UHGV virus genome: UHGV-0371278
Length of the DNA: 64,000 bases
Strand: one strand, 5' to 3'
Source: a virus
Below the pieces are notes generated by a model. The model worked only from the letters and a program-made list of their open reading frames with translations. It did not search any database and had not been told where the DNA came from. Each line of letters opens with the position of its first letter. The stretch's first letter is position 1. The translations under genes and the position numbers were made by a program. Positions 3,425 through 60,740 of the stretch are shown piece by piece.

Positions 3425-3658
3425 ATGTCTTTCCTCGAAATGCAAATCGACCCGCCGCAAACGCGACAGACAGCGCCGTCTTTCGTGCTGGTAGGCATCC
3501 TGTACCTGATCGGCGATGGGCGCCTGGACGATAAGCCTTTCACTTCGTTCAACCTGTCGTTCGGCAGTCGCGAAGAGGCCGAGCGCGCCCGCGACAAGAT
3601 TATTGAGCATTACCTGGACCGTCGCGATATTCGCGCCGAAATCATCCGCTGCTACTGA
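3425..3658 (+). CDS. hypothetical protein
   Basis: GAAGAGG RBS 5 nt upstream of ATG 3425 (alternative start 3392). Confidence 0.4.
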   Translation: MSFLEMQIDPPQTRQTAPSFVLVGILYLIGDGRLDDKPFTSFNLSFGSREEAERARDKIIEHYLDRRDIRAEIIRCY

Positions 3659-3665
3659 GGTCACC

Positions 3666-3872
3666 ATGTCGATTGAACTTGTGTACCGAACCTCTGATGG
3701 AACCGTCTTCTCATCCATTCAGGAGGCTGAAGAGTATGAGTCGCGTCTGGAGGCCTGCGAACTGCTCAAGGAAGAGATAGAGCAGTATGGCCTTCGTAAA
3801 GAGCAAGCCCAAGGCCTGGCCCTGGCTCTCACCGAAAAATTCCACTTCACACCAATTCCGGAAGATTTCTGA
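3666..3872 (+). CDS. hypothetical protein
   Basis: GAGGT RBS; internal start of ORF 3516-3872. Confidence 0.4.
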   Translation: MSIELVYRTSDGTVFSSIQEAEEYESRLEACELLKEEIEQYGLRKEQAQGLALALTEKFHFTPIPEDF

Positions 3873-4789
3873 TGAAGATTTCTCTGATCAGTTACACCCA
3901 GAACGCCTGGGAATTGCTCTTGGGAACGAAGTCCACCCGCATGCGCGGCCAAGACCCGGCGACCATGACCGAGGCCGAAAAGCTCGACCACTGGAAGTAC
4001 ATGCTGGACACCATCCGCTCGCCGTTCGAGTTCGTGGACTTCATTTTCCAGATCGAGGGTGTCAGCAAGAACTTCACCCATCAACTAGTTCGGACTCGTA
4101 CCGGGGCTTACCAGCAGGAAACCAGTCGCGCTCTGGAAATCAGCGCCGTCGTTCAGCCGGAAGCATTCCGCTGGGAATTCGACGAACCGGCTACGGTAAA
4201 TGGCGAGCCTGACCCGACCTACCATGTCCGCGAAGAGCTGAACCGTCTGTGGCATGACGCCATTGCCGACGCGCAAACCAGCTACCAGAAGCTTCTGGAG
4301 GCCGGCGCGTCGCTCCAGGACGCTCGTGCCATCATCCCTTCCAACATGGAAACGAAGATCGCGGCCAAGTTCAATCTGCGGACTCTCAGCGACATGGCGA
4401 AGGTTCGCCTGTGCGTTCGGACCCAGGGTGAATATCAGGAAGCGTTCCGCGAAATGCGCCGGCTGGTTCTGGAAGTCTATCCGATGTTCGACAGCCTGCT
4501 TCAGCCGCACTGCGTCGCCACCGGCTCCTGCGCCTTCCCGCGCTATGGGTCGAAGGTGATGAATGAAGAGGAAATCCAGCAGAAATCCTATGACCGGTTC
4601 ATGTCCGCTCTGGAGACGAAGCCCGGCCAGATTCCTGTGGTTGATGTTACGTTGGAACCTATCTACCAGTGCAAGTTCTATCGCCCCTGGATGGATCGCT
4701 CGGCCGAGCAGGAAGAGCTGCGCCGCGATTTCTGGGGATCGGAAAAACAGGAGGCCAACCCTGTGGCCGTCAACGGGAAGTCCATGTAA
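3872..4789 (+). CDS. thyX: flavin-dependent thymidylate synthase ThyX-like
   Basis: ThyX signature region FTHQLVRTRTGAYQQETSRAL (R-x-R...S...R pattern; the usual RHR is RTR here); start overlaps previous stop (TGATG). Confidence 0.55.
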   Translation: MKISLISYTQNAWELLLGTKSTRMRGQDPATMTEAEKLDHWKYMLDTIRSPFEFVDFIFQIEGVSKNFTHQLVRTRTGAYQQETSRALEISAVVQPEAFRWEFDEPATVNGEPDPTYHVREELNRLWHDAIADAQTSYQKLLEAGASLQDARAIIPSNMETKIAAKFNLRTLSDMAKVRLCVRTQGEYQEAFREMRRLVLEVYPMFDSLLQPHCVATGSCAFPRYGSKVMNEEEIQQKSYDRFMSALETKPGQIPVVDVTLEPIYQCKFYRPWMDRSAEQEELRRDFWGSEKQEANPVAVNGKSM

Positions 4790-36882: not shown

Positions 36883-38325
36883 TTACTCCCCCTTCAGGTA
36901 ACTGTCCAGCTCGGCGCACTGCGGAGCAGAACTGGCCGAATCCTGGGCTTTCGATTGACGGCTGGCCGCGCCACGAGCAGCTTCGACGCCTTTCAGGTAC
37001 ATGTCGAGCGCCAGAACTTCCTGGCCCTTCTCACAGCGGATCGCCAGCTTCTTCACGCCGTAAACAGCGACTTCAGCCGAGTCCATAGCTCGGTGATCGA
37101 ACGCACCAACCACGGAACTAAGACGCTTGTAGAGGCGATCTTTAGCAGCAATGTCGCGATAGAGACCGCGAATTGCTGCATCTTGCGCGTTCTTCTGTGC
37201 CATTTCAGGAAGTTCCTCGCTGTTATCCTTGCTCTCACCACCATCGTCGCTGGCTGTTTGCGAGCCGCTGAGGCTGCTCTGCTCCTCCAAACCCTCGACG
37301 ACATCTTGGCCTTCGCCATGTTCTTCGTCCGCCTCTTCGGCTACCGTGCCTTCCAGTCGAGCCAGAATGGCTTTGACCTGAGAGATCAGTTCGGCGACTT
37401 CGCCTTCACCGGACATTTCGGATGCGGCGCTTTCTTGATGCTCCGGCTCGACGGCGGCCACGGCCGGATCGACAACGGAAGGCTCCTCTTCCTGCTCTTC
37501 GTCGTCCTTCTGGGCACCTTCCAGAGTCGGATGCTCGGTCAGGTGCTCGCTGTCGGTCGGTTCGGCCGGAGCGGCTGCGCCTTCTTGGTGCTCCGGCTCC
37601 TGCGCCTGCGCCTCTTCGCCCAGGAACTTCTGGACAGATGCAGAGAGCTTCGGCCACAGGGCGCGCAACTCTTCGACCGCCGAATCAGCAGCTTGTCCTG
37701 CGCGCTGGACAGGAGTCTTCTGCTTGGCTTTCTTGAGACCCATTTCATTACCCTCATCGGATGGTCTGAAATCAAAACTGAGATGGTCAAAGCACAGACC
37801 ATCCAATACTCTGGCCCCCGGCACACGACCCTCTTTTACCAGGGCGATGTGGTTGCCGCGCATCTTGTCCTGGACGACTTCATAAGGCGTTCCATTCCAG
37901 ATGCCGGGTTGCTCAGTGTAGCGGCAACTATAGCCTAGGGACAGATCTTCCTTGCCCCTTTCCAGCTGATTCTGCATGTTGCGGGAATAGATGCGGATAT
38001 CGCCGCGAGCCCATGGAGCTTCGTAGTAGGCGTTGGCTGTGATGATGCCTTCCACGCCTTTGTCTTCGGGAGCCACGCCGTCGTCATCGCCGTCGAATCC
38101 CGACAGCATTTCGTGCTCGTCGATCAGCGGGAGATTCTTCAGAGATTCGATGTACTCAGGATCGCTAACGGCAGACTCCGGACGATACACGTTGACAATC
38201 CGCATCGGATCGCCCGGAAGACCGAGTTGACCGGCAGAATATTGGAAAATGCCATAAGAGCTGATTGGACAACCCTCGATGGTCATATATCCATTTTCGT
38301 CAATTTTTCTTTTCGACTTTGCCAT
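36883..38325 (-). CDS. prohead protease/scaffolding fusion-like protein (DUF2213-like N-terminus, long acidic coiled-coil middle)
   Basis: N-terminal domain typical of phage prohead protease-like DUF2213, acidic E/A-rich scaffold-like region. Confidence 0.55.
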   Translation of the reverse strand: MAKSKRKIDENGYMTIEGCPISSYGIFQYSAGQLGLPGDPMRIVNVYRPESAVSDPEYIESLKNLPLIDEHEMLSGFDGDDDGVAPEDKGVEGIITANAYYEAPWARGDIRIYSRNMQNQLERGKEDLSLGYSCRYTEQPGIWNGTPYEVVQDKMRGNHIALVKEGRVPGARVLDGLCFDHLSFDFRPSDEGNEMGLKKAKQKTPVQRAGQAADSAVEELRALWPKLSASVQKFLGEEAQAQEPEHQEGAAAPAEPTDSEHLTEHPTLEGAQKDDEEQEEEPSVVDPAVAAVEPEHQESAASEMSGEGEVAELISQVKAILARLEGTVAEEADEEHGEGQDVVEGLEEQSSLSGSQTASDDGGESKDNSEELPEMAQKNAQDAAIRGLYRDIAAKDRLYKRLSSVVGAFDHRAMDSAEVAVYGVKKLAIRCEKGQEVLALDMYLKGVEAARGAASRQSKAQDSASSAPQCAELDSYLKGE

Positions 38326-38339
38326 CGTTAATTCGAAGA

Positions 38340-38870
38340 GTCGTGGACTATGGCTGTATTATATACGCAGGACATCCAAGGGTAAATAAGCGGAACAATA
38401 ATTAGATGTAGCCGCGACTGTTAATTTACACTAGAATCTGTATTGTGATCTAATTACCGGATTTCCTCAGCCGCGAAACTGGTAACTTGGTTTCGGAAAT
38501 TTGACGGGATTTGTCTAAGCCTACTGCCGCAAGACTTTCAATCTTTAAACTAATCCAAATTACCAATTTACCAATTAAAAATTGAATTTCAATACGTATA
38601 TAGCATATAGATTGACGTTATATTATAACGTTCCTTATAGATGGATTCTATTAGAACGCTACTCCTAATTTCTCATGCTATATACTTTTGCAGCATGCGG
38701 CGAAATCGGAAATTAGGAATTTAGCATGTTAAAGCCTTGCGGCAGTAGGCTTTCCAAATTACCGCTATTTCCCCAGAAACGGTAATTTGCGGCTATCCGG
38801 ACCCGAATTTTTATTCAGAATCCGGATTTTCGCGGCATCATCAGCCGAAAGCAATCAGGATTGAGACGCC
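38340..38870. repeat. noncoding element A: AT-rich core flanked by a perfect 15-bp inverted repeat (gcctactgccgcaag 38519-38533 / cttgcggcagtaggc 38746-38760), contains a 17-bp palindrome acgttatattataacgt (38625-38641)
   Basis: no ORFs; homologous to element B at 56630-56900. Confidence 0.6.
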
Positions 38871-38978
38871 GATGATGGCCAGATCAACGGCGGCAAACTT
38901 CAAGCTGAAGAATCCGCCATGGATATTGGCCCTTATCACATCGGCCACGAGTCGGCGCGCGTATGTTTTTCGGTTCAT
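38841..38978 (-). CDS. small hydrophobic protein (45 aa), not in ORF track
   Basis: ATGA overlap with upstream gene stop (38975-38978); GAGG RBS; C-terminal TM-like segment. Confidence 0.35.
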
Positions 38979-42334: not shown

Positions 42335-42500
42335 TTTAATTCCATGCGGTTGCTGGTTGTGTGCACTTATTATAGGGGAAACATCAAACGTTCAAAAGAG
42401 ATTCAAACATATACATCACATTAACAGTCGCAACTAATCAGTTATGAGAAAATAATTCTTACGGGAACTTTTCGGCAGATTAGACTCTAATTATCAACCA
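42335..42500. promoter_or_regulatory. AT-rich divergent promoter region (late portal operon leftward, accessory island rightward)
   Basis: 166-bp AT-rich spacer between divergent genes; TATAAT-like hexamer on minus strand. Confidence 0.4.
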
Positions 42501-55604: not shown

Positions 55605-56177
55605 CTAAATGGGGTTGGCGCGGTCTTCCTCGGTCGGTTCCGGCGTCGGGGACGGGAAATCGCCCTCTTCGCCGTTCTGTACATAGCCATTGGCTTCGGC
55701 CGCTGCAGCGACGGTCGCGGTTTGAGCCTCGGCTTCCGATGCGTAGAAGTCTGCCAATCCGCGACCGATCCTGGTTTTGCCAGACTCGTCAACGAACGTG
55801 ATTTCGGCCAGAACGTTCAATTCCTTGATGGCCGACAGACGGCTGGAGTCCTTGACAGTGGGATCGCGAACCATCTGGAGAAGTTCGTGAAGCGCCGTCT
55901 TTGGGTTCCACAGATCTGCTGTTCTGGTCGCATTCAGCTTGGCCTTGAACTGCTTGCGATAGTACGGGTTGGACTCCATTGCGAAGATGCGAGCCTGGGC
56001 CGGTCCGTCCATATGCTCTTCGCCCCAGATCGCCCGGAAGACCCGCCAGGAGCTATAGCCTTGAACGCGCAGGTCGATGTACAGATCGAAACGCTTCTGG
56101 TTGATCGCCGCGAACTGCGGATCAGCGAATTCTTGTGGCGTGACTAAATCGTCGGGTCTGTAGGATTTGGCGGTCAT
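55605..56177 (-). CDS. helix-turn-helix-like DNA-binding protein, possible terminase small subunit
   Basis: size and WNPKTALHELLQM...SRLSAIKELNVL region reminiscent of small terminases; first ATG of a GTG-led ORF; location is atypical (5 kb from TerL). Confidence 0.3.
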   Translation of the reverse strand: MTAKSYRPDDLVTPQEFADPQFAAINQKRFDLYIDLRVQGYSSWRVFRAIWGEEHMDGPAQARIFAMESNPYYRKQFKAKLNATRTADLWNPKTALHELLQMVRDPTVKDSSRLSAIKELNVLAEITFVDESGKTRIGRGLADFYASEAEAQTATVAAAAEANGYVQNGEEGDFPSPTPEPTEEDRANPI

Positions 56178-56261
56178 TTGTTGCTGCGTCCCTGGAGTTC
56201 GATTCTTGGACCATCGCGGTGGCTTGTTTGGCGGATGGGGCCTGGTGCTTTGCCGCGACAC

Positions 56262-57094
56262 TGAGTATGGCGCGATTGTACTATGGGGCCAGGGAGCACG
56301 TCTATGGGCTGCTGGTGGTTGGCCTGTAGGTCTGGGTGGGTTTGATGGTGAATGAGTGTTAGGTGGTGTTATAGGATGTTATATGGGCGGTCCGCTGGCG
56401 AGTGAGGATCGGATTGGCTGGTGGCGGGCGATGGTGGCGGTGAGTGTTTGGATTGAATGTTAAATCGAATGTTAGGAATATGTCCAGATGAGCGATTCTG
56501 CCTTGTGGCCAAATTTCCGGTTCCGCTCGTCGAGTTTTGGTCACTGCCGCTTAGTCCGCCGTGGTGTTGCCGCTGCCCATGGTTTGGAAGGACGGAAGTT
56601 TCCGGCGACCCTGCCGCGAGTTGAGCGGAATCGGAAACTTGACTGGTAGTGTACAGGCTTAGTGCCGCGAGGCTTTCAAACCTAAAACCATAACAAATTA
56701 CCAAATTCCCATTAATTTTATTAATTTTAAAGATAGGTAACGTACGTGATAGATTTTTTCTATTAGGATTGTGCAATCGATTTTCGCTGTAGAATAGTTT
56801 TAAACCATGCTCGGAAAACTGGGAATTCGGGAAAACGGCCGCAAACCCACGCGGCAGTAGGCCTCCCGAATTCCCAGTCAGAATAGCAATCCAGGAATTT
56901 GCGGCTATTTCCCACAAAAAATCCACCTCAAACCCACAATTTCTCAACATTTCACGCAAAATCCAACCATCATACACTCCAGACCAATACCGAAAATCTA
57001 TCAATTCCCCACAATACACCGCCGCCACAACACCCTAATTCCCACATAGCTTTCGAACCTCACCCGTTCACAGGCTAAATTAATGTTCTCCGCG
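56262..57094. repeat. noncoding element B: strand-skewed iteron-like GT-rich (56300-56490) and CA-rich (56911-57055) arms around an AT-rich core bounded by imperfect inverted repeats gcttagtgccgcgag (56657-56671) / cgcggcagtaggc (56850-56863); candidate replication origin
   Basis: about 830 bp without credible ORF; homologous to element A; adjacent to primase genes. Confidence 0.5.
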
Positions 57095-57122
57095 CCAAAG
57101 AAAAGACCGCCCGAAGGCGGCC
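57095..57122 (-). terminator. terminator after primase operon
   Basis: ccgcc cgaa ggcgg stem followed (minus strand) by ttttctttgg. Confidence 0.45.
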
Positions 57123-57148
57123 TAATCCAATCCATCTGCATCAGTACA

Positions 57149-58879
57149 CTAGAAATCCTCGCCCAATATCTTGGCTCGCTCTGCCTTGACCCTGCGGATA
57201 TGCGACATTGCGTCATCATCAGAGACAGCGGCGTCATTCTTCCTGACCATATATATCAGCGCATCGTTGAATGACGGCAAGGACCCAATCATTTCCTGAC
57301 CGGCAACTTTATCAGCAGGCAGTAGCCATCCATTCAGGCCGTTCTTATTCGGAATGAATCCAAGCGATTTCAGGTGTGGAGTTAAATGGCGAGAAATCGG
57401 CTTCTTCCTGGCGAGAATATCGAACCACTTCAAGATTTCCACCGTATTGACACGCCACCCAGGAGTCTTGGAATTCCCACCAGGCTTAATCTCTTCAAAC
57501 TCGCAACTGATCAGGACATTGATCAGATACATATCAATCGTATCGTCGCGAACCACGCCACGCGCATTCTCCATTTCCGAAATAGAGAAGTTCTGGACTT
57601 CGCGGTTTGCTTCCGACACCATATTCAGGTAGCCATCGACGCCATGCTCTTCGATCCAGGCGCGGCACTCGGCCATCGCTTGCCAGAATTTGCGGCCGAA
57701 GTCGGTGAAGTCCACTTTGAACGGTTCGTTGCCGTCGCCTGGCTTTACCCAGTTCGGCTTTCCATCCTCATCGGGCAGTTGCGCCACGAACATTGGATAG
57801 AAACGGCGGTTACCAGAGTCGTCCCGCTGGAGTCCATCGTAGCCGTTGCCGTCCATGATGGTGATCCATTGTCGCTTGATCGTCTCGCCCGGCTCAAACT
57901 TCTGGTCGAATGTATCAGAAGATCGCACCAGGAACTCTTTGATGCGTTCCATGTCGCCCTTTTTGAAGCCGGACATTTCACCGACGTTCGCAATAACCGA
58001 GTTACCGGTGATGTTGCGCAGGAATGGTGTCTGGTCATGCCGGCTCAGGTCGAGCTGGACTGGAGCCAGATCGCGACCGCCCGACAGTTCCTTGCATATC
58101 AGCAAGCCGAAATAGGATTTACCCGCATCTTGCCCACCAATCAACGCCAGAGAAATCGGCGCCGAAATTCCCGGATAATTGATGCGACAGTACAGGCTCA
58201 GCCAGAAATACTTGCTCACCATCCGGTTCAATTCGGTGTCGAACGGCTTAAACAGATCGATCAGCAGCGTGCCAATTCGCTCTTCGCCGTCCCACTCCGG
58301 TATCTTCTTCTCAAACGTCTCGATCAGAGAGTTGCGGCGATATCGACGCGCCCAAACGCAGCAAGTCTCAATCGTCTTCTTGATCGAGGGATCGTCCAAG
58401 GCCGCAGCCGCGAGGGCGCCCATCAGGTCAATCGGGTCGAGGGTCTTGTTGTTGAACGCTACGCCGCGATGGTCCACCAGCCGGCCGCGAAACTCATCGA
58501 AGTGCGGATGCGGGACGGTTCCATCGCCCTTGCAGAACAAAGTATCGTACACCGCGAGATAGTTGCTGTCGGAAGTCGAGCTGTATTTCGTGATGAAGTC
58601 ATCGAACGGCCCTTTCACGACCCGGCTGACCGGAAGATCGAACGCCTGGTCGAGCATCAACAACCGCGCTCGCTTCCTCAAGTCTGGTTCCGCATACGCC
58701 TCGGCGTATCTTGCCGCCTTTTGTGCGCGATGCGTTTCGTTCCTCGCAATCGCATCATCGGCCGCCTTGCTCGCGGCGGTCATCAAAGGGTCCATTCCAG
58801 CATCTTCTATCTGTGTGAGATCAAACTCACTGGACCCTGATTCGCCATCATCAAAAATATTATCTTCGTCGATAATCAT
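57149..58879 (-). CDS. VirE-family P-loop protein (phage primase C-terminal domain-like)
   Basis: Walker A GGQDAGKSYFG inside a Virulence-associated E-like region. Confidence 0.65.
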   Translation of the reverse strand: MIIDEDNIFDDGESGSSEFDLTQIEDAGMDPLMTAASKAADDAIARNETHRAQKAARYAEAYAEPDLRKRARLLMLDQAFDLPVSRVVKGPFDDFITKYSSTSDSNYLAVYDTLFCKGDGTVPHPHFDEFRGRLVDHRGVAFNNKTLDPIDLMGALAAAALDDPSIKKTIETCCVWARRYRRNSLIETFEKKIPEWDGEERIGTLLIDLFKPFDTELNRMVSKYFWLSLYCRINYPGISAPISLALIGGQDAGKSYFGLLICKELSGGRDLAPVQLDLSRHDQTPFLRNITGNSVIANVGEMSGFKKGDMERIKEFLVRSSDTFDQKFEPGETIKRQWITIMDGNGYDGLQRDDSGNRRFYPMFVAQLPDEDGKPNWVKPGDGNEPFKVDFTDFGRKFWQAMAECRAWIEEHGVDGYLNMVSEANREVQNFSISEMENARGVVRDDTIDMYLINVLISCEFEEIKPGGNSKTPGWRVNTVEILKWFDILARKKPISRHLTPHLKSLGFIPNKNGLNGWLLPADKVAGQEMIGSLPSFNDALIYMVRKNDAAVSDDDAMSHIRRVKAERAKILGEDF

Positions 58880-59026: not shown

Positions 59027-59212
59027 TTAAAATACGTCAAACGCAACGACGAACCAGAACGTCAAAGCGGAAAGACCGAAGAAGAAGCACAGAAGCGACG
59101 CGAGGAAGTTTGCGACTTGTATTTTCCACCCCTTTAGGCCTTCGAAGAAGATGATAAGGCCGAGGAACAGCAAGCCGATGGCGGTAATCAGAATTCCAGG
59201 ATCATTTTGCAT
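59027..59212 (-). CDS. small membrane protein (2 TM)
   Basis: hydrophobic 61-aa ORF. Confidence 0.4.
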   Translation of the reverse strand: MQNDPGILITAIGLLFLGLIIFFEGLKGWKIQVANFLASLLCFFFGLSALTFWFVVAFDVF

Positions 59213-59217
59213 AGTTA

Positions 59218-60294
59218 CTACTCCTCGCCGATATGACGGCGGTTGATGCGTTCAAGTTGTTCGACAATATACGGCAGGACGACTTCATCGGTGAAGGCCG
59301 CCCATGTCCGTCGATGCTCTTTGCGGCAAGTATCGTGCCCGCATCCGAACACATATTCGTGCTCGGCGCCAGGTATCGGTCCGCGAAAGTATGCGCCGAA
59401 AGGATCGCCATTTGTGTGCTCGTCGCCCCAGGGACAGCGGATGCGGTATTTGCCGGACATATTCTGCTGGACCTGGCCGCCTGCCGCTTCTCCCATCTTG
59501 TATTTCGTGCAGATGTGCTCGGCATACTTCAACCATACTTGGTCATACAACCAATCGTCGCGGTTTATCTCCACCTTCTTCATCTGTGGCATGATGATGC
59601 GGACGCCAAAGGCCTGGGCGATTTCCTCTGGTGAGTAGCGCTTGGAATAGTCTGCGTGATACAGGCGAACCAGTTCGGGCTTGCCGTTTTCGTCTGCATA
59701 TTTGAAGTTGCCGTCTTTCCCGCGCTTGTTGTTGAAGCCGAAAGGCATGCGACCATAACGGCTGACGTCTTTGACGGTGTTGTCGCCGCCTTTCTTTAGC
59801 ACCTGGTCCACGAACGAATAGAGCAGCGCCTTGAACTGGAGCATGTGGGCCATCGGCTCTTTGAAGAAATACCAGAACTGGTAGTTGTTCGGCGAAGTCT
59901 CCACAATCGCGGTCGGCTCCAGGCGTTCGCGGAACTCGTCGCGGTCGAAGTCGCCTTTGGAACCTTTGCCGGAGCCGATGTCATCGACCATTAACGCCAG
60001 GCCGTGGCCGAAAGAGGCCTCGCCGCGCCAGTATCGCATCTGGCCGGTCTTCGGGTTGGGCGTCTTGATGGATGACGAGATACAGGCATATGCGTTGGAT
60101 CTGGAATTGATGTACTTGCCTTCCTTCCAGGGAACTGGCCACCAGCCTGCGTTGAGCTTGCGGCCGTTTTCGTCGGTCTGGACTGTGGCCTCTTCAGCGT
60201 AGCCGACCATCACCCGTTCGTCGTCCGGAATCCCTCTGCCGAGTTCTCGCAGGAATTCTTCGGCCTGAGCCAGTCTTATTTCGTGAGGCTTCAT
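59218..60294 (-). CDS. archaeo-eukaryotic primase (prim-pol)-like protein with Cys/His zinc motif
   Basis: LALMVDDIGSGKG (DxD-type) and CPWGDEHT...CGHDTC; ATG at MKPHE overlaps upstream stop (ATGA). Confidence 0.5.
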   Translation of the reverse strand: MKPHEIRLAQAEEFLRELGRGIPDDERVMVGYAEEATVQTDENGRKLNAGWWPVPWKEGKYINSRSNAYACISSSIKTPNPKTGQMRYWRGEASFGHGLALMVDDIGSGKGSKGDFDRDEFRERLEPTAIVETSPNNYQFWYFFKEPMAHMLQFKALLYSFVDQVLKKGGDNTVKDVSRYGRMPFGFNNKRGKDGNFKYADENGKPELVRLYHADYSKRYSPEEIAQAFGVRIIMPQMKKVEINRDDWLYDQVWLKYAEHICTKYKMGEAAGGQVQQNMSGKYRIRCPWGDEHTNGDPFGAYFRGPIPGAEHEYVFGCGHDTCRKEHRRTWAAFTDEVVLPYIVEQLERINRRHIGEE

Positions 60295-60740
60295 GCAAGT
60301 CGCTCCGGGCGCCCCTTGCGTCGAGGCACTTCCACGAACTGTCGCGCAGCACTCGCCTTTCTGGCGGAGTTTAGTCCATCTTCGTGGACCCGACTCCATG
60401 CTTCCATGATCTTGTGCTGCCGCGCCTTTTCGAGCGCCGGGGGAATCTTCGCATCGTCGATGCCGCGCACCCACATGAACATCAGGAACGTCGCCAGGTC
60501 CAAGAGGTTGTTCTCATTTCCCTTCAGCGCATGTTCGGCGAATCCGTTGATCAGAATATCTTCGTCGCAGTCGATCCAGCCGCCTCGGCCTTTATCGCGG
60601 GAGCGCTGTAACTTCTGGCGGATCGCCGTTGCGAACATGGACAGGGCATACTCGTCCTGAGCTTCAGGCTTTGCCTTCCTGAGAACGTCGAGGCTGGTCA
60701 TGATGACTCCATCTACTGGTGAAGGTTTCTTCTGTTCCAT
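60291..60740 (-). CDS. hypothetical protein
   Basis: ORF in operon. Confidence 0.4.
   Translation of the reverse strand: MEQKKPSPVDGVIMTSLDVLRKAKPEAQDEYALSMFATAIRQKLQRSRDKGRGGWIDCDEDILINGFAEHALKGNENNLLDLATFLMFMWVRGIDDAKIPPALEKARQHKIMEAWSRVHEDGLNSARKASAARQFVEVPRRKGRPERLA

What the first reader, a model, noticed from the sequence alone, without database searches (positions are those of the whole stretch)
38340..38870. Noncoding element A inside the late head operon: perfect 15-bp terminal inverted repeats, AT-rich core and a 17-bp palindrome
A 530-bp ORF-free stretch lies between the small-protein gene and the protease/scaffold gene.

It contains:
- gcctactgccgcaag at 38519-38533 and its exact reverse complement at 38746-38760, flanking about 210 bp of AT-rich DNA
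- a 17-bp palindrome acgttatattataacgt at 38625-38641 within that core
- further dyads (cctaatttc ... gaaattagg)

The left arm and core are recognisably homologous to element B at 56630-56900 (for example cggaaatttgacggg...gcctactgccgcaagactttcaa...aaattaccaa versus cggaaacttgactgg...gcttagtgccgcgaggctttcaa...aaattaccaa).

A duplicated element of this kind is more than a simple promoter. It could be a second origin, a packaging site, a protein-recognition site shared by two genome locations, or a small MITE-like insertion.
Basis: seen in the sequence. Interest (0 to 1): 0.7.

Follow-up and report, generated by a model that had tools for sequence, protein, structure and literature searches.

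The report
Uncut twin of a phage packaging/origin site
The noncoding stretch in front of the head-protease gene of this Pseudomonas PB1-like phage is a conserved second copy of the control region where these phages start packaging their DNA and probably start copying it; this copy is not cut, so it most likely serves as an extra docking site for a replication or packaging protein.

Summary
The window is a Pbunavirus (PB1-like Pseudomonas aeruginosa myophage). The described features are real; two sub-coordinates are off by 10 nt. Element A (38493-38797) is a true paralogue of element B (56631-56909) and is intact in 295 of 297 Pbunavirus records, so it is not a mobile insertion.

B lies between a helicase gene (homologue of the SaPI self-loading Rep) and the small-terminase gene. 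Its AT-rich core holds the packaging (pac) DNA end. JG024 nanopore read starts (59,376), the fixed read ends that set nucleotide 1 of Ab27, and the first base of at least eight named GenBank records all map to window 56779, or within 2 nt of it. That base lies inside an invariant AATCGATT palindrome. B also carries a mapped sigma-70 promoter for terS.

A and B share opposed YGCGGC-containing repeats, including the 22-bp arms, around the two most AT-rich 100-bp stretches of the window. This is the build of a SaPI-type origin. A lacks the cleavage palindrome, is not a DNA end, and is a ~290-bp quasi-palindrome.

Best reading (inferred, ~0.4): a second helicase-loading, origin-like site. Rivals: an uncut terminase-binding site, a promoter/operator region, an RNA hairpin.

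The parts
38326..38840 (.). Intergenic region between the 45-aa ORF and the head maturation protease gene; contains element A
   Evidence: ORF list and annotation of phage antinowhere; PHROG matches for the flanking genes
38493..38797 (-). Element A proper: the block homologous to element B (sense = window minus strand); a ~290-bp quasi-palindrome
   Evidence: Alignments; BLAST E 1.4e-12; self-reverse-complement score 32 vs 15.1+/-3.1; single-strand fold z -6 to -11 in all 10 phages tested
38517..38538 (.). Inverted-repeat arm (downstream arm in gene sense): AAGCCTACTGCCGCAAGACTTT; contains one GCCGCAA repeat
   Evidence: the repeat finder I1, 22 nt at 95%; A-U<->G-C compensatory change between phage clades
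38731..38752 (.). Inverted-repeat arm (upstream arm in gene sense): AAAGCCTTGCGGCAGTAGGCTT; contains one TTGCGGC repeat
38411..38476 (+). Two outer GCCGCGA repeats (38411-38417, 38470-38476), same polarity as the one in the arm at 38526-38532
   Evidence: arrangement not reached in 5000 shuffles
38787..38836 (+). Two outer TYGCGGC repeats (38787-38793, 38830-38836), opposite polarity to the left set; with 38737-38743 they mirror the left set around ~38624-38635
   Evidence: (I4, I10)
38615..38631 (.). 17-bp palindrome ACGTTATATTATAACGT at the centre of symmetry; B has only the half-site ACGTTA
38637..38651 (.). Dyad ATAGA-N5-TCTAT; this pattern occurs only here and in B (56749-56763) in the whole window
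   Evidence: conserved in all A and B copies
38556..38572 (-). Tandem GGTAAATTG-GGTAATTTG 9-mers. Further copies as a small inverted pair at 38755-38763 (-) and 38781-38789 (+)
   Evidence: 18 hits (<=1 mismatch) in the window vs 9.4 expected; 7 in A and 3 in B; I6/I11
38358..38386 (-). Sigma-70 promoter TTTACC-17-TATAAT for the head protease gene; start site ~38350. Lies outside the A/B homology block
   Evidence: Scan 10/12; same sequence as 14-1 P014, start site 13257, mapped by ONT-cappable-seq (bioRxiv 10.1101/2023.10.13.562163 Table S3; alignment)
38565..38592 (-). Predicted but unconfirmed promoter TTGAAA-16-TAAATT inside element A
   Evidence: annotated as promoter in CEB_DP1; no start site reported there in 14-1
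36883..38325 (-). Head maturation protease gene, downstream of A
   Evidence: PHROG 3778, E 7e-223; annotation
56631..56909 (-). Element B, the paralogue of A. Arms at 56655-56676 and 56843-56864; GCCGCG at 56613 and 56664, GCGGC at 56851 and 56901, both pairs centred on ~56759
56775..56782 (.). AATCGATT palindrome in the B core holding the packaging DNA end. The 5' end of the minus strand is at 56779 (CGATTGC...)
   Evidence: JG024 read starts at 59,376 +/-5 plus a pac fragment (PMC10913387), mapped exactly by alignment. Ab27 nucleotide 1 was set from fixed read ends (PMC4482731; sequence). BrSP1, PA11P1, PAP8, Pa204, SIIA-P1, PaP1_EPu-2019 and vB3530 start at or within 2 nt of this base
56749..56763 (.). 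Dyad ATAGA-N5-TCTAT of B, 16 nt downstream of the cut in gene sense
56675..56720 (-). Equivalent of 14-1 promoter P040 (sigma-70; start site at the first A of the arm, ~56675). The -10 is weakened to TATGGT in this phage
   Evidence: Table S3 of 10.1101/2023.10.13.562163; alignments; not picked up by the consensus scan in this window
55605..56174 (-). Small terminase (TerS) gene, first gene downstream of B
   Evidence: phmmer vs PDB: 7UXE, E217 small terminase, E 5e-119
57149..58879 (-). VapE-like SF3 helicase, homologue of the SaPI self-loading Rep initiator; its stop codon is 370 bp upstream of the cut
   Evidence: Pfam PF05272; 7PDS E 1e-13; model pLDDT 88, and the best PDB fold matches are all six 7PDS chains, E 2e-16 over ~490 columns; 7PDS = SaPI1 Rep1-DNA
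59218..60474 (-). RepB-type primase gene upstream of the helicase gene
   Evidence: Pfam PF16793, E 1.4e-59
57104..57123 (-). Intrinsic terminator after the helicase gene
   Evidence: the same sequence is listed for JG024 at 59033-59059 (PMC3008698)

Best explanation
Element A is a conserved, uncut, palindromised paralogue of the control region that lies between the Rep-like helicase gene and the small-terminase gene of Pbunaviruses (element B).

Shown:
- B carries the packaging (pac) DNA end and a sigma-70 promoter for terS.
- B has the build of a SaPI-type replication origin: short GC-rich repeats (YGCGGC, two of them inside the 22-bp arms) in two opposed sets around the most easily melted DNA of the genome.
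- B sits directly downstream of a homologue of the SaPI self-loading Rep helicase.
- A keeps that build, with three plus three opposed repeats, an AT-rich centre, the ATAGA-N5-TCTAT dyad and GGTAATTTG 9-mers.
- A lacks B's AATCGATT cleavage palindrome and is not used as a DNA end.

Inferred:
- The shared module is a loading site for the protein that reads the repeats, most likely the Rep-like helicase through its C-terminal domain.
- On this reading A is a second origin or an origin helper. It sits just upstream of the sigma-70 promoter that drives the protease-capsid genes.

That A is a paralogue of the pac/terS control region is near certain. That it works as an origin-like site is an inference.
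For: Paralogy and conservation:
- A is intact in 295/297 records at 87-100% identity.

B holds the pac end:
- The DTR boundary of the related Serratia phage MyoSmar lies 377 bp after its helicase gene and ~390 bp before its terS homologue.

B's neighbours: TerS, helicase = SaPI Rep homologue, RepB primase.

SaPI origin rule, from PMC9371898: iterons lie directly downstream of rep, the centre is AT-rich, and at least two iterons on each side point in opposite directions. Against that rule:
- In this window such an arrangement exists only at A and B, and in 0 of 5000 shuffles.
- In Xanthomonas phage XcP1 it exists at only one place in 61.8 kb. That place is directly after the helicase gene, has the same polarity, is the most AT-rich spot of that genome, and is 3 kb from its terS.
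- The A and B cores are the two most AT-rich 100-bp stretches of the window.

A lacks the cut palindrome.

Precedents for two homologous origin-type sites in one phage genome, from my own knowledge and not tested here: SPP1 oriL/oriR and P4 ori/crr.
Against: - There is no replication data for any Pbunavirus.
- The only published skew analysis places the minima inside the DNA polymerase and replication genes, not at A or B (PMC12390725).
- YGCGGC is short and common in this 55% GC genome (5.6 GCGGC/GCCGC per kb).
- In about 40% of the B copies examined, including this window's, the two arms differ at two positions. Strict arm complementarity is therefore not required.
- B copies do not share A's extended palindromy (fold z -0.5 to -4.3).
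- The one function experimentally tied to the shared region is packaging, not replication.
- A lies in the head operon, far from the replication genes.
Confidence: 0.4

Rival explanations
1. A is an auxiliary terminase site: a pac-like sequence that is bound by the small terminase, or the holoenzyme, but not cut. It could concentrate terminase on concatemers or pair with the true pac site in B. T4 gp16 has been proposed to synapse the related sequences in genes 16 and 19 (own knowledge).
For: - The only experimentally anchored function of the homologous region is packaging initiation.
- B lies just upstream of terS.
- pac sites of SPP1 and P1 have repeated motifs on both sides of a central cut (own knowledge), as A and B do.
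- One record, E215, is opened inside A, 14 nt from the position equivalent to the B cut and in the same orientation.
Against: - A is unbroken in 295/297 records, while an estimated 20-25 records start at or near the B cut.
- JG024 long reads showed one start site only.
- A lacks AATCGATT and differs by ~35% from the 110 bp that are invariant in B.
- E217 TerS showed no appreciable DNA binding in vitro (PMC9611059).
- In XcP1 the element stays with the helicase gene, 3 kb from terS.
Confidence: 0.2
2. A is a transcription control region for the head operon. It would be a duplicated promoter cassette with an AT-rich UP-like upstream region. The arms and 9-mers would act as operators for a phage or host regulator, possibly looping the ~190 bp between the arms.
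For: - In 14-1 the B copy contains the active sigma-70 promoter P040. Its start site is the first base of the arm, and the GTAATTTG repeats lie in its spacer.
- A has promoter-like hexamers at and near the equivalent place.
- The mapped protease promoter lies 130 bp downstream of A.
- Earlier genome papers listed these AT-rich boxes as possible regulatory motifs (PMC3008698).
Against: - No start site was detected inside A in 14-1.
- At the P040-equivalent position the -10 of A is degenerate (GATTAG).
- 300 bp of conserved sequence, nested symmetry and 3+3 opposed repeats are far more than a sigma-70 promoter needs.
- The homology block ends before the real protease promoter.
Confidence: 0.2
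3. A acts as RNA. In read-through transcripts of the head operon it would fold into a ~290-nt hairpin closed by the 22-bp arms. That hairpin would act as a processing site (for example RNase III), a stability element or an attenuator between the portal-side genes and the protease gene.
For: - The sense-strand fold is -107 kcal/mol, z -8.4.
- All 10 A copies fold with z -6 to -11, and the sense strand is always more stable than the antisense.
- There is one A-U<->G-C compensatory change in the arm and one in the small upstream hairpin.
Against: - The same alignment folded as antisense gives a similar count of 'kept' pairs.
- A strand-neutral structure shows 9 sense-compatible against 10 antisense-compatible transitions. 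There is therefore no strand-specific covariation.
- There is no Rfam match and no terminator-like tail.
- B does not fold, although the sequence is conserved there too. Any DNA palindrome folds well on both strands.
Confidence: 0.1
4. A is a MITE-like mobile insertion with terminal inverted repeats.
For: 17-22-bp inverted repeats flank a ~190-bp AT-rich core, and there are two copies in the genome.
Against: - It is present at the same two sites in essentially all of ~297 Pbunaviruses.
- No target-site duplication is visible next to the arms.
- Homology between A and B continues ~25-45 bp outside both arms.
- A pattern scan of 2.9 million viral contigs found true homologues only in Pbunavirus contigs.
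Confidence: 0.02

Closest known systems
SaPI (staphylococcal pathogenicity island) pri-rep-ori replicon
   Same: - Gene order is primase, then self-loading SF3-like helicase/initiator, then a noncoding site directly downstream.
- That site has short repeats in two opposed sets around an AT-rich centre (PMC9371898).
- The phage helicase is a sequence and fold homologue of SaPI1 Rep.
   Different: - Binding of the helicase to the repeats is untested.
- The repeats here are embedded in longer 17-22-bp arms.
- The site in B starts ~240 bp after the stop codon and also holds a pac end and a promoter.
- There is a second copy (A) 18 kb away in the head operon (about 20 kb in the direction of packaging). 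No such second copy appears in the SaPI origin description I read.
pac sites of headful phages (SPP1 pacL/pacC/pacR, P1 pac, P22 pac) - own knowledge
   Same: - It is a few hundred bp close to terS.
- Repeated short motifs lie on both sides of a central cleavage point, in bendable AT-rich DNA.
- B shows a fixed DNA end plus a permuted genome.
   Different: This applies to B. A lacks the cleavage palindrome and is not an end. TerS binding is unproven and was not seen in vitro for E217 TerS.
Paired homologous cis sites in one phage genome: SPP1 oriL/oriR, P4 ori/crr, T4 gene 16/gene 19 pac-related sequences - own knowledge
   Same: There are two diverged copies of one recognition module, kilobases apart. 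One lies next to the gene of the protein that reads it, and the other in a late region.
   Different: No sequence relationship exists with any of these. Which protein reads A and B is unknown, and there is no functional test.
Predicted sigma-70 promoters and 'AT-rich boxes' of PB1-like phages (Ceyssens 2009 as cited in Garbe 2010, PMC3008698; annotations of LBL3 and CEB_DP1)
   Same: These are the same DNA. JG024's predicted ORF22 promoter covers the 17-bp palindrome. LBL3 and CEB_DP1 annotate promoters inside A and B.
   Different: Those predictions inside A were not borne out by start-site mapping in 14-1. In the papers and annotations I could read, nobody stated the paralogy of the two regions, or their link to the pac end and to an origin-like build. 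Only bare 'repeat_region' features exist.

Membership tests
SaPI-type origin (pri-rep-ori) | Initiator is a self-loading Rep helicase of the VapE/SF3-like kind | tested here: met
   PF05272; phmmer 7PDS E 1e-13; Foldseek best hits are all six 7PDS chains, E 2e-16 over ~490 columns, model pLDDT 88
SaPI-type origin (pri-rep-ori) | The site lies immediately downstream of the rep ORF | tested here: inconclusive
   B: met approximately (block starts ~240 bp after the stop, centre at 370-390 bp). XcP1: met. A, the element under review: not met, because it lies upstream of the head protease gene
SaPI-type origin (pri-rep-ori) | AT-rich centre with at least two short repeats on each side pointing in opposite directions | tested here: met
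   A has 3+3 and B has 2+2 GCCGCR / YGCGGC; these are the only two such places in the window; 0/5000 shuffles; the cores are 22% and 25% GC
SaPI-type origin (pri-rep-ori) | Rep binds the repeats and melts the centre; the site supports replication | not testable with these tools
   Needs EMSA or footprinting, a plasmid origin assay, or marker-frequency sequencing
pac site of a headful phage | A preferred, fixed DNA end in virion DNA of a circularly permuted genome | tested here: not met
   For A: 295/297 records are unbroken and only E215 is opened there; JG024 reads show one site, which is in B. For B the feature is met
pac site of a headful phage | Location in or next to terS | tested here: not met
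   A is ~17.5 kb from terS in the window. B is ~460-730 bp upstream of terS
pac site of a headful phage | Specific binding by the small terminase | not testable with these tools
   In vitro, E217 TerS showed no appreciable DNA binding (PMC9611059)
MITE / small non-autonomous transposon | Terminal inverted repeats at the element ends with flanking target-site duplication | tested here: not met
   Inverted repeats are present, but homology with B runs past both arms and no direct repeat flanks them
MITE / small non-autonomous transposon | Presence/absence polymorphism or many dispersed copies | tested here: not met
   Two fixed sites in ~297 genomes; no copies outside Pbunavirus contigs
Known structured RNA family (Rfam) | Covariance-model match | tested here: not met
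   No hit at gathering scores in the window. The only hit at E<=1 is a spurious AT-rich match, E 0.77
Sigma-70 promoter | Mapped transcription start with -35/-10 hexamers | tested here: inconclusive
   The mapped start (14-1 P014) lies outside the homology block, at ~38350. Only predicted hexamers lie inside A. The B copy has a mapped start (14-1 P040)

The most novel reading that the evidence does not exclude
A and B form a two-site system that couples replication and packaging. The Rep-like helicase would load at both copies (dual origins), while terminase cuts only at B. Alternatively the two copies are brought together, T4-style, to sense concatemers. A would then be an essential cis element that synthetic Pbunavirus genomes must keep. 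The YGCGGC/AT-rich module would be the ancestral origin of the whole PB1-like group, since it is already present as a single copy in Carpasinavirus.
Probability: 0.15. Interest if true: 0.75.

Novelty: new variant of a known kind. Interest (0 to 1): 0.55.

Why it matters
Pbunaviruses are among the most used therapeutic phages against Pseudomonas aeruginosa, and they are now being rebuilt synthetically. Their genome ends have been disputed for 15 years, and no origin is known.

This analysis pins the packaging end to one nucleotide in a named motif, using several independent public data sets. It shows that the region has the build of a SaPI-type origin next to a SaPI-Rep-like helicase gene. It also reveals a conserved second copy in the head operon, and I found nothing in the literature I could read that interprets it.

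The result is a concrete, testable pair of cis elements for replication and packaging studies. It is also a practical warning for genome engineering: do not split or delete 38493-38797 or 56631-56909 without testing.

Tried and rejected
- Rfam search at gathering and permissive thresholds: nothing real.
- Strand-specific covariation for an RNA hairpin. RNAalifold gave many G-U-compatible changes, but the antisense control gave about as many. A strand-neutral structure gave 9 vs 10, so this is not evidence.
- Pattern scan of IMG/VR for the shared motif. 59 loci were returned, and only the Pbunavirus contigs were true homologues.
- Search for a copy of the helicase-downstream element in front of the protease gene of Xanthomonas phage XcP1: none. 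That gap holds a hairpin and a promoter only.
- The same repeat motif was not found after the helicase gene in E. coli WFC, Burkholderia Maja or Serratia MyoSmar. Tabernarius gave a single hit of opposite polarity.
- Ceyssens 2009 and Lokareddy 2022 could not be read.
- The BAPR transcriptome preprint said nothing about the element.
- Cumulative GC skew of the window is dominated by gene orientation and local C/A-rich tracts, so it was not used as origin evidence.
- DnaA-box, sigma-54 and IHF consensus matches were looked for by eye only, and nothing convincing was seen.
- The E215 record break inside A was checked. It is a plain opening of a circular assembly with no redundancy, and it is a single case.

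Full report
**What the window is**
BLAST of 38300-38900 finds 299 phage records, essentially all Pbunavirus (PB1-like myophages of Pseudomonas aeruginosa). Identity is 100% to PSA09 and about 88-98% to the rest. Genes around the finding are on the window's minus strand. In sense orientation the order is portal-side genes, a 68-aa ORF, a 45-aa ORF (38841-38978), the noncoding stretch, then the head maturation protease (36883-38325) and the capsid genes.

**Check of the observation**
Every feature exists, but two coordinates are 10 nt too high.
- The arms are 38517-38538 and 38731-38752 (22 nt, 95%; 17 nt perfect).
- The 17-bp palindrome is at 38615-38631.
- The cctaatttc/gaaattagg dyad is at 38663-38672 / 38709-38718.
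- Homology to 56630-56900 is real: 70% over 100 bp (E 1.4e-12) plus 60% over 172 bp. There is no third copy in the window.
- The A core (38540-38639, 22% GC) and the B core (56685-56784, 25% GC) are the two most AT-rich 100-bp stretches of a ~55% GC window. The dyad ATAGA-N5-TCTAT occurs only in these two places.

**Anatomy from 10 A and 12 B copies**
In sense orientation both elements read as follows:
1. a small inverted pair of GGTAATTTG-like 9-mers;
2. arm 1;
3. about 60 variable nt;
4. a conserved core with the ATAGA-N5-TCTAT dyad and ACGTTA;
5. an A/T run;
6. tandem GTAATTTGGTAATTTGG;
7. a -10-like hexamer;
8. TTGAAAG;
9. arm 2;
10. ACA..CCGTCAAGTTTCCGA.

Homology therefore runs beyond both arms.

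GGTAATTTG (up to one mismatch) has 18 hits in the window against 9.4 expected, seven of them in A and three in B.

The arms carry a shorter repeat. On the plus strand GCCGCRA occurs at 38411, 38470 and 38526, and TYGCGGC at 38737, 38787 and 38830, mirrored around ~38624-38635. In B, GCCGCG lies at 56613 and 56664 and GCGGC at 56851 and 56901, with both pairs centred on 56759. Two opposed sets around an AT-rich centre were found in 0 of 5000 shuffles of either element, and nowhere else in the 64 kb.

A as a whole is a ~290-bp quasi-palindrome. Its self-reverse-complement score is 32 against 15.1 +/- 3.1 in shuffles. Either strand folds far better than shuffles in all 10 phages (z -6 to -11 sense, -4.4 to -9.2 antisense). 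B copies do not (z -0.5 to -4.3).

**What B is**
The first gene downstream of B is the small terminase (7UXE, E217 TerS, E 5e-119). The gene upstream is a VapE-like helicase (PF05272), preceded by a RepB-type primase (PF16793).

Four independent lines put a physical DNA end in the B core:
1. In JG024, 36 of 161 nanopore reads longer than 30 kb start at 59,376 +/- 5. An extra restriction fragment fits a pac fragment, and the genome is circularly permuted (PMC10913387).
2. [quoted passage not shown]
3. An alignment shows that JG024 59,376, nucleotide 1 of Ab27, and nucleotide 1 of BrSP1 and PA11P1 are the same base. It is the C of CGATTGC, which is window 56779 on the minus strand.
4. In a ranked sample of 60 of 297 records, the last five rows all begin at record position 1 within 2 nt of that base: PAP8, Pa204, SIIA-P1, PaP1_EPu-2019 and vB3530. 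I extrapolate roughly 20-25 such records overall.

The end lies in an 8-bp palindrome, AATCGATT (56775-56782). This palindrome is invariant in all B copies and sits inside ~110 bp that barely vary, although the flanks differ by ~20%.

Two further observations agree:
- In the related Serratia phage MyoSmar, the PhageTerm terminal-repeat boundary lies 377 bp after the helicase gene and ~390 bp before its terS homologue (42% identity). That is the same place.

B also holds a mapped sigma-70 promoter. This is 14-1 P040, whose start site is the first A of arm 2, about 103 bp downstream of the cut (bioRxiv 10.1101/2023.10.13.562163 Table S3).

**B also looks like an origin**
The helicase matches SaPI1 Rep (7PDS) by sequence (E 1e-13). 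A confident model (pLDDT 88) has all six 7PDS chains as its best PDB matches (E 2e-16, ~490 aligned columns). These rank ahead of other SF3 primase-helicases and papillomavirus E1.

SaPI origins are described as follows. Iterons lie immediately downstream of rep, the centre is AT-rich, and at least two iterons on each side point in opposite directions. Rep is thought to load one ring on each side (PMC9371898). B fits that description.

In Xanthomonas phage XcP1 (Carpasinavirus; helicase ~40-44% identical across the aligned part) the same motif arrangement occurs at only one place in 61.8 kb. That place is directly after the helicase gene, has the same polarity, is centred on that genome's most AT-rich spot, and is 3 kb from its terS. 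The element therefore travels with the helicase gene. XcP1 has no second copy in front of its protease gene, so A is a duplication specific to the Pbunavirus lineage.

**What A is and is not**
A is present and unbroken in 295 of 297 records at 87-100% identity. This rules out a mobile insertion. So do the absence of target-site duplications and the absence of copies elsewhere.

A is not a packaging end:
- At the position of the cut it reads GAAATTAGGAG instead of AAAATCGATTG.
- Only one record (E215) is opened inside A, 14 nt from the equivalent position.
- JG024 reads showed a single start site.

The mapped promoter for the protease gene (14-1 P014) corresponds to 38358-38386 with a start at ~38350. 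This is outside the homology block, and no start site was reported inside A.

An RNA role is possible but unsupported. The apparent excess of G-U-compatible changes disappears in the antisense and strand-neutral controls, and Rfam gives nothing.

The arms do show one A-U<->G-C double change between A clades. Arm variants also match between the two arms in A (CCTACTGCCGC) and in one group of B copies (CTTAGTGCCGC). In this window's B, however, arm 1 is of the A type and arm 2 of the B type. That points to exchange between the two elements, and it shows that exact complementarity is not required.

**Interpretation**
What A shares with B is the origin-like build, not the cleavage motif. I therefore favour a second loading site for the Rep-like helicase, acting as a second origin or an origin helper. 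My confidence is about 0.4.

The main rivals:
- an uncut terminase-binding site (0.2);
- a promoter/operator region for the head operon (0.2);
- an RNA hairpin in read-through transcripts (0.1);
- a MITE (about 0.02).

None of the functional steps for A is shown. They follow from architecture, synteny and analogy.

**Novelty**
The pac position in B and its AT-rich nature are already in the literature. So are predicted promoters in both regions.

I did not find the following in the papers and annotations I could read. Only bare 'repeat_region' features come close.
- The paralogy of A and B.
- The nucleotide-level agreement of the independent end data on the AATCGATT palindrome.
- The SaPI-origin-like repeat architecture, conserved into Carpasinavirus.
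- The fact that the head-operon copy is an uncut, palindromised twin.

I rate this as a new variant of known kinds of cis element, of moderate interest.

Noticed in passing
window 56775-56782 (cut at 56779): Many GenBank Pbunavirus records from different laboratories begin at the same nucleotide, or within 2 nt of it, inside the palindrome AATCGATT (a ClaI-like ATCGAT core). This could serve as a common zero point for the genus.
   Followed up: yes
window 56262-56630 and 56910-57148: B is flanked by strongly skewed tracts. GC skew is +0.20 to +0.23 at 56001-56800 and -0.39 at 56801-57200. As a result the ~500-nt leader of terS is C/A-rich and G-poor. XcP1 has four tandem CCCCAGAACAA repeats at the matching place. 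The function is unknown.
   Followed up: partly
window 56817-56878: In this phage a perfect 15-bp hairpin (ACTGGGAATTCGGGA / TCCCGAATTCCCAGT) encloses arm 1 of B. It is imperfect in close relatives such as L013.
   Followed up: partly
window 56843-56864 vs 56655-56676: This window's B is chimeric: arm 1 has the A-type sequence (CCTACTGCCGC) and arm 2 the B-type (CTTAGTGCCGC). Other phages (14-1, LBL3) have B-type in both. This suggests gene conversion between A and B.
   Followed up: partly
NC_042080.1 (E215) record ends; equivalent to window 38653/38654: The E215 record is opened inside element A (...AACGTTC | CAATAGAATTCATCTAT...), without redundancy. It has the same orientation as the records that start at the B cut. 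It could be an assembly break at the palindrome or a rare end.
   Followed up: partly
L081 (Serratia phage MyoSmar) 3940: The boundary of the PhageTerm-predicted 3,559-bp direct terminal repeat lies 377 bp after the helicase gene. In Pbunavirus the pac cut lies 370 bp after it. The terminus position looks conserved across different packaging styles.
   Followed up: partly
ON857938.1 (FBPa35, 62,320 bp): The 601-bp A query matched this record only over 79 bp, probably through cross-matching to B. A may be deleted there, or the record may be incomplete.
   Followed up: no
L080 (Pseudomonas phage tabernarius) ~3461-3910: A single window after its helicase gene shows the YGCGGC / GCCGCR sets in the opposite polarity to Pbunavirus and XcP1.
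   Followed up: no
window 42362-42461: This is the third most AT-rich spot of the window (30% GC). It is the divergent promoter region corresponding to 14-1 P012/P013, and it shares no homology with A or B.
   Followed up: no
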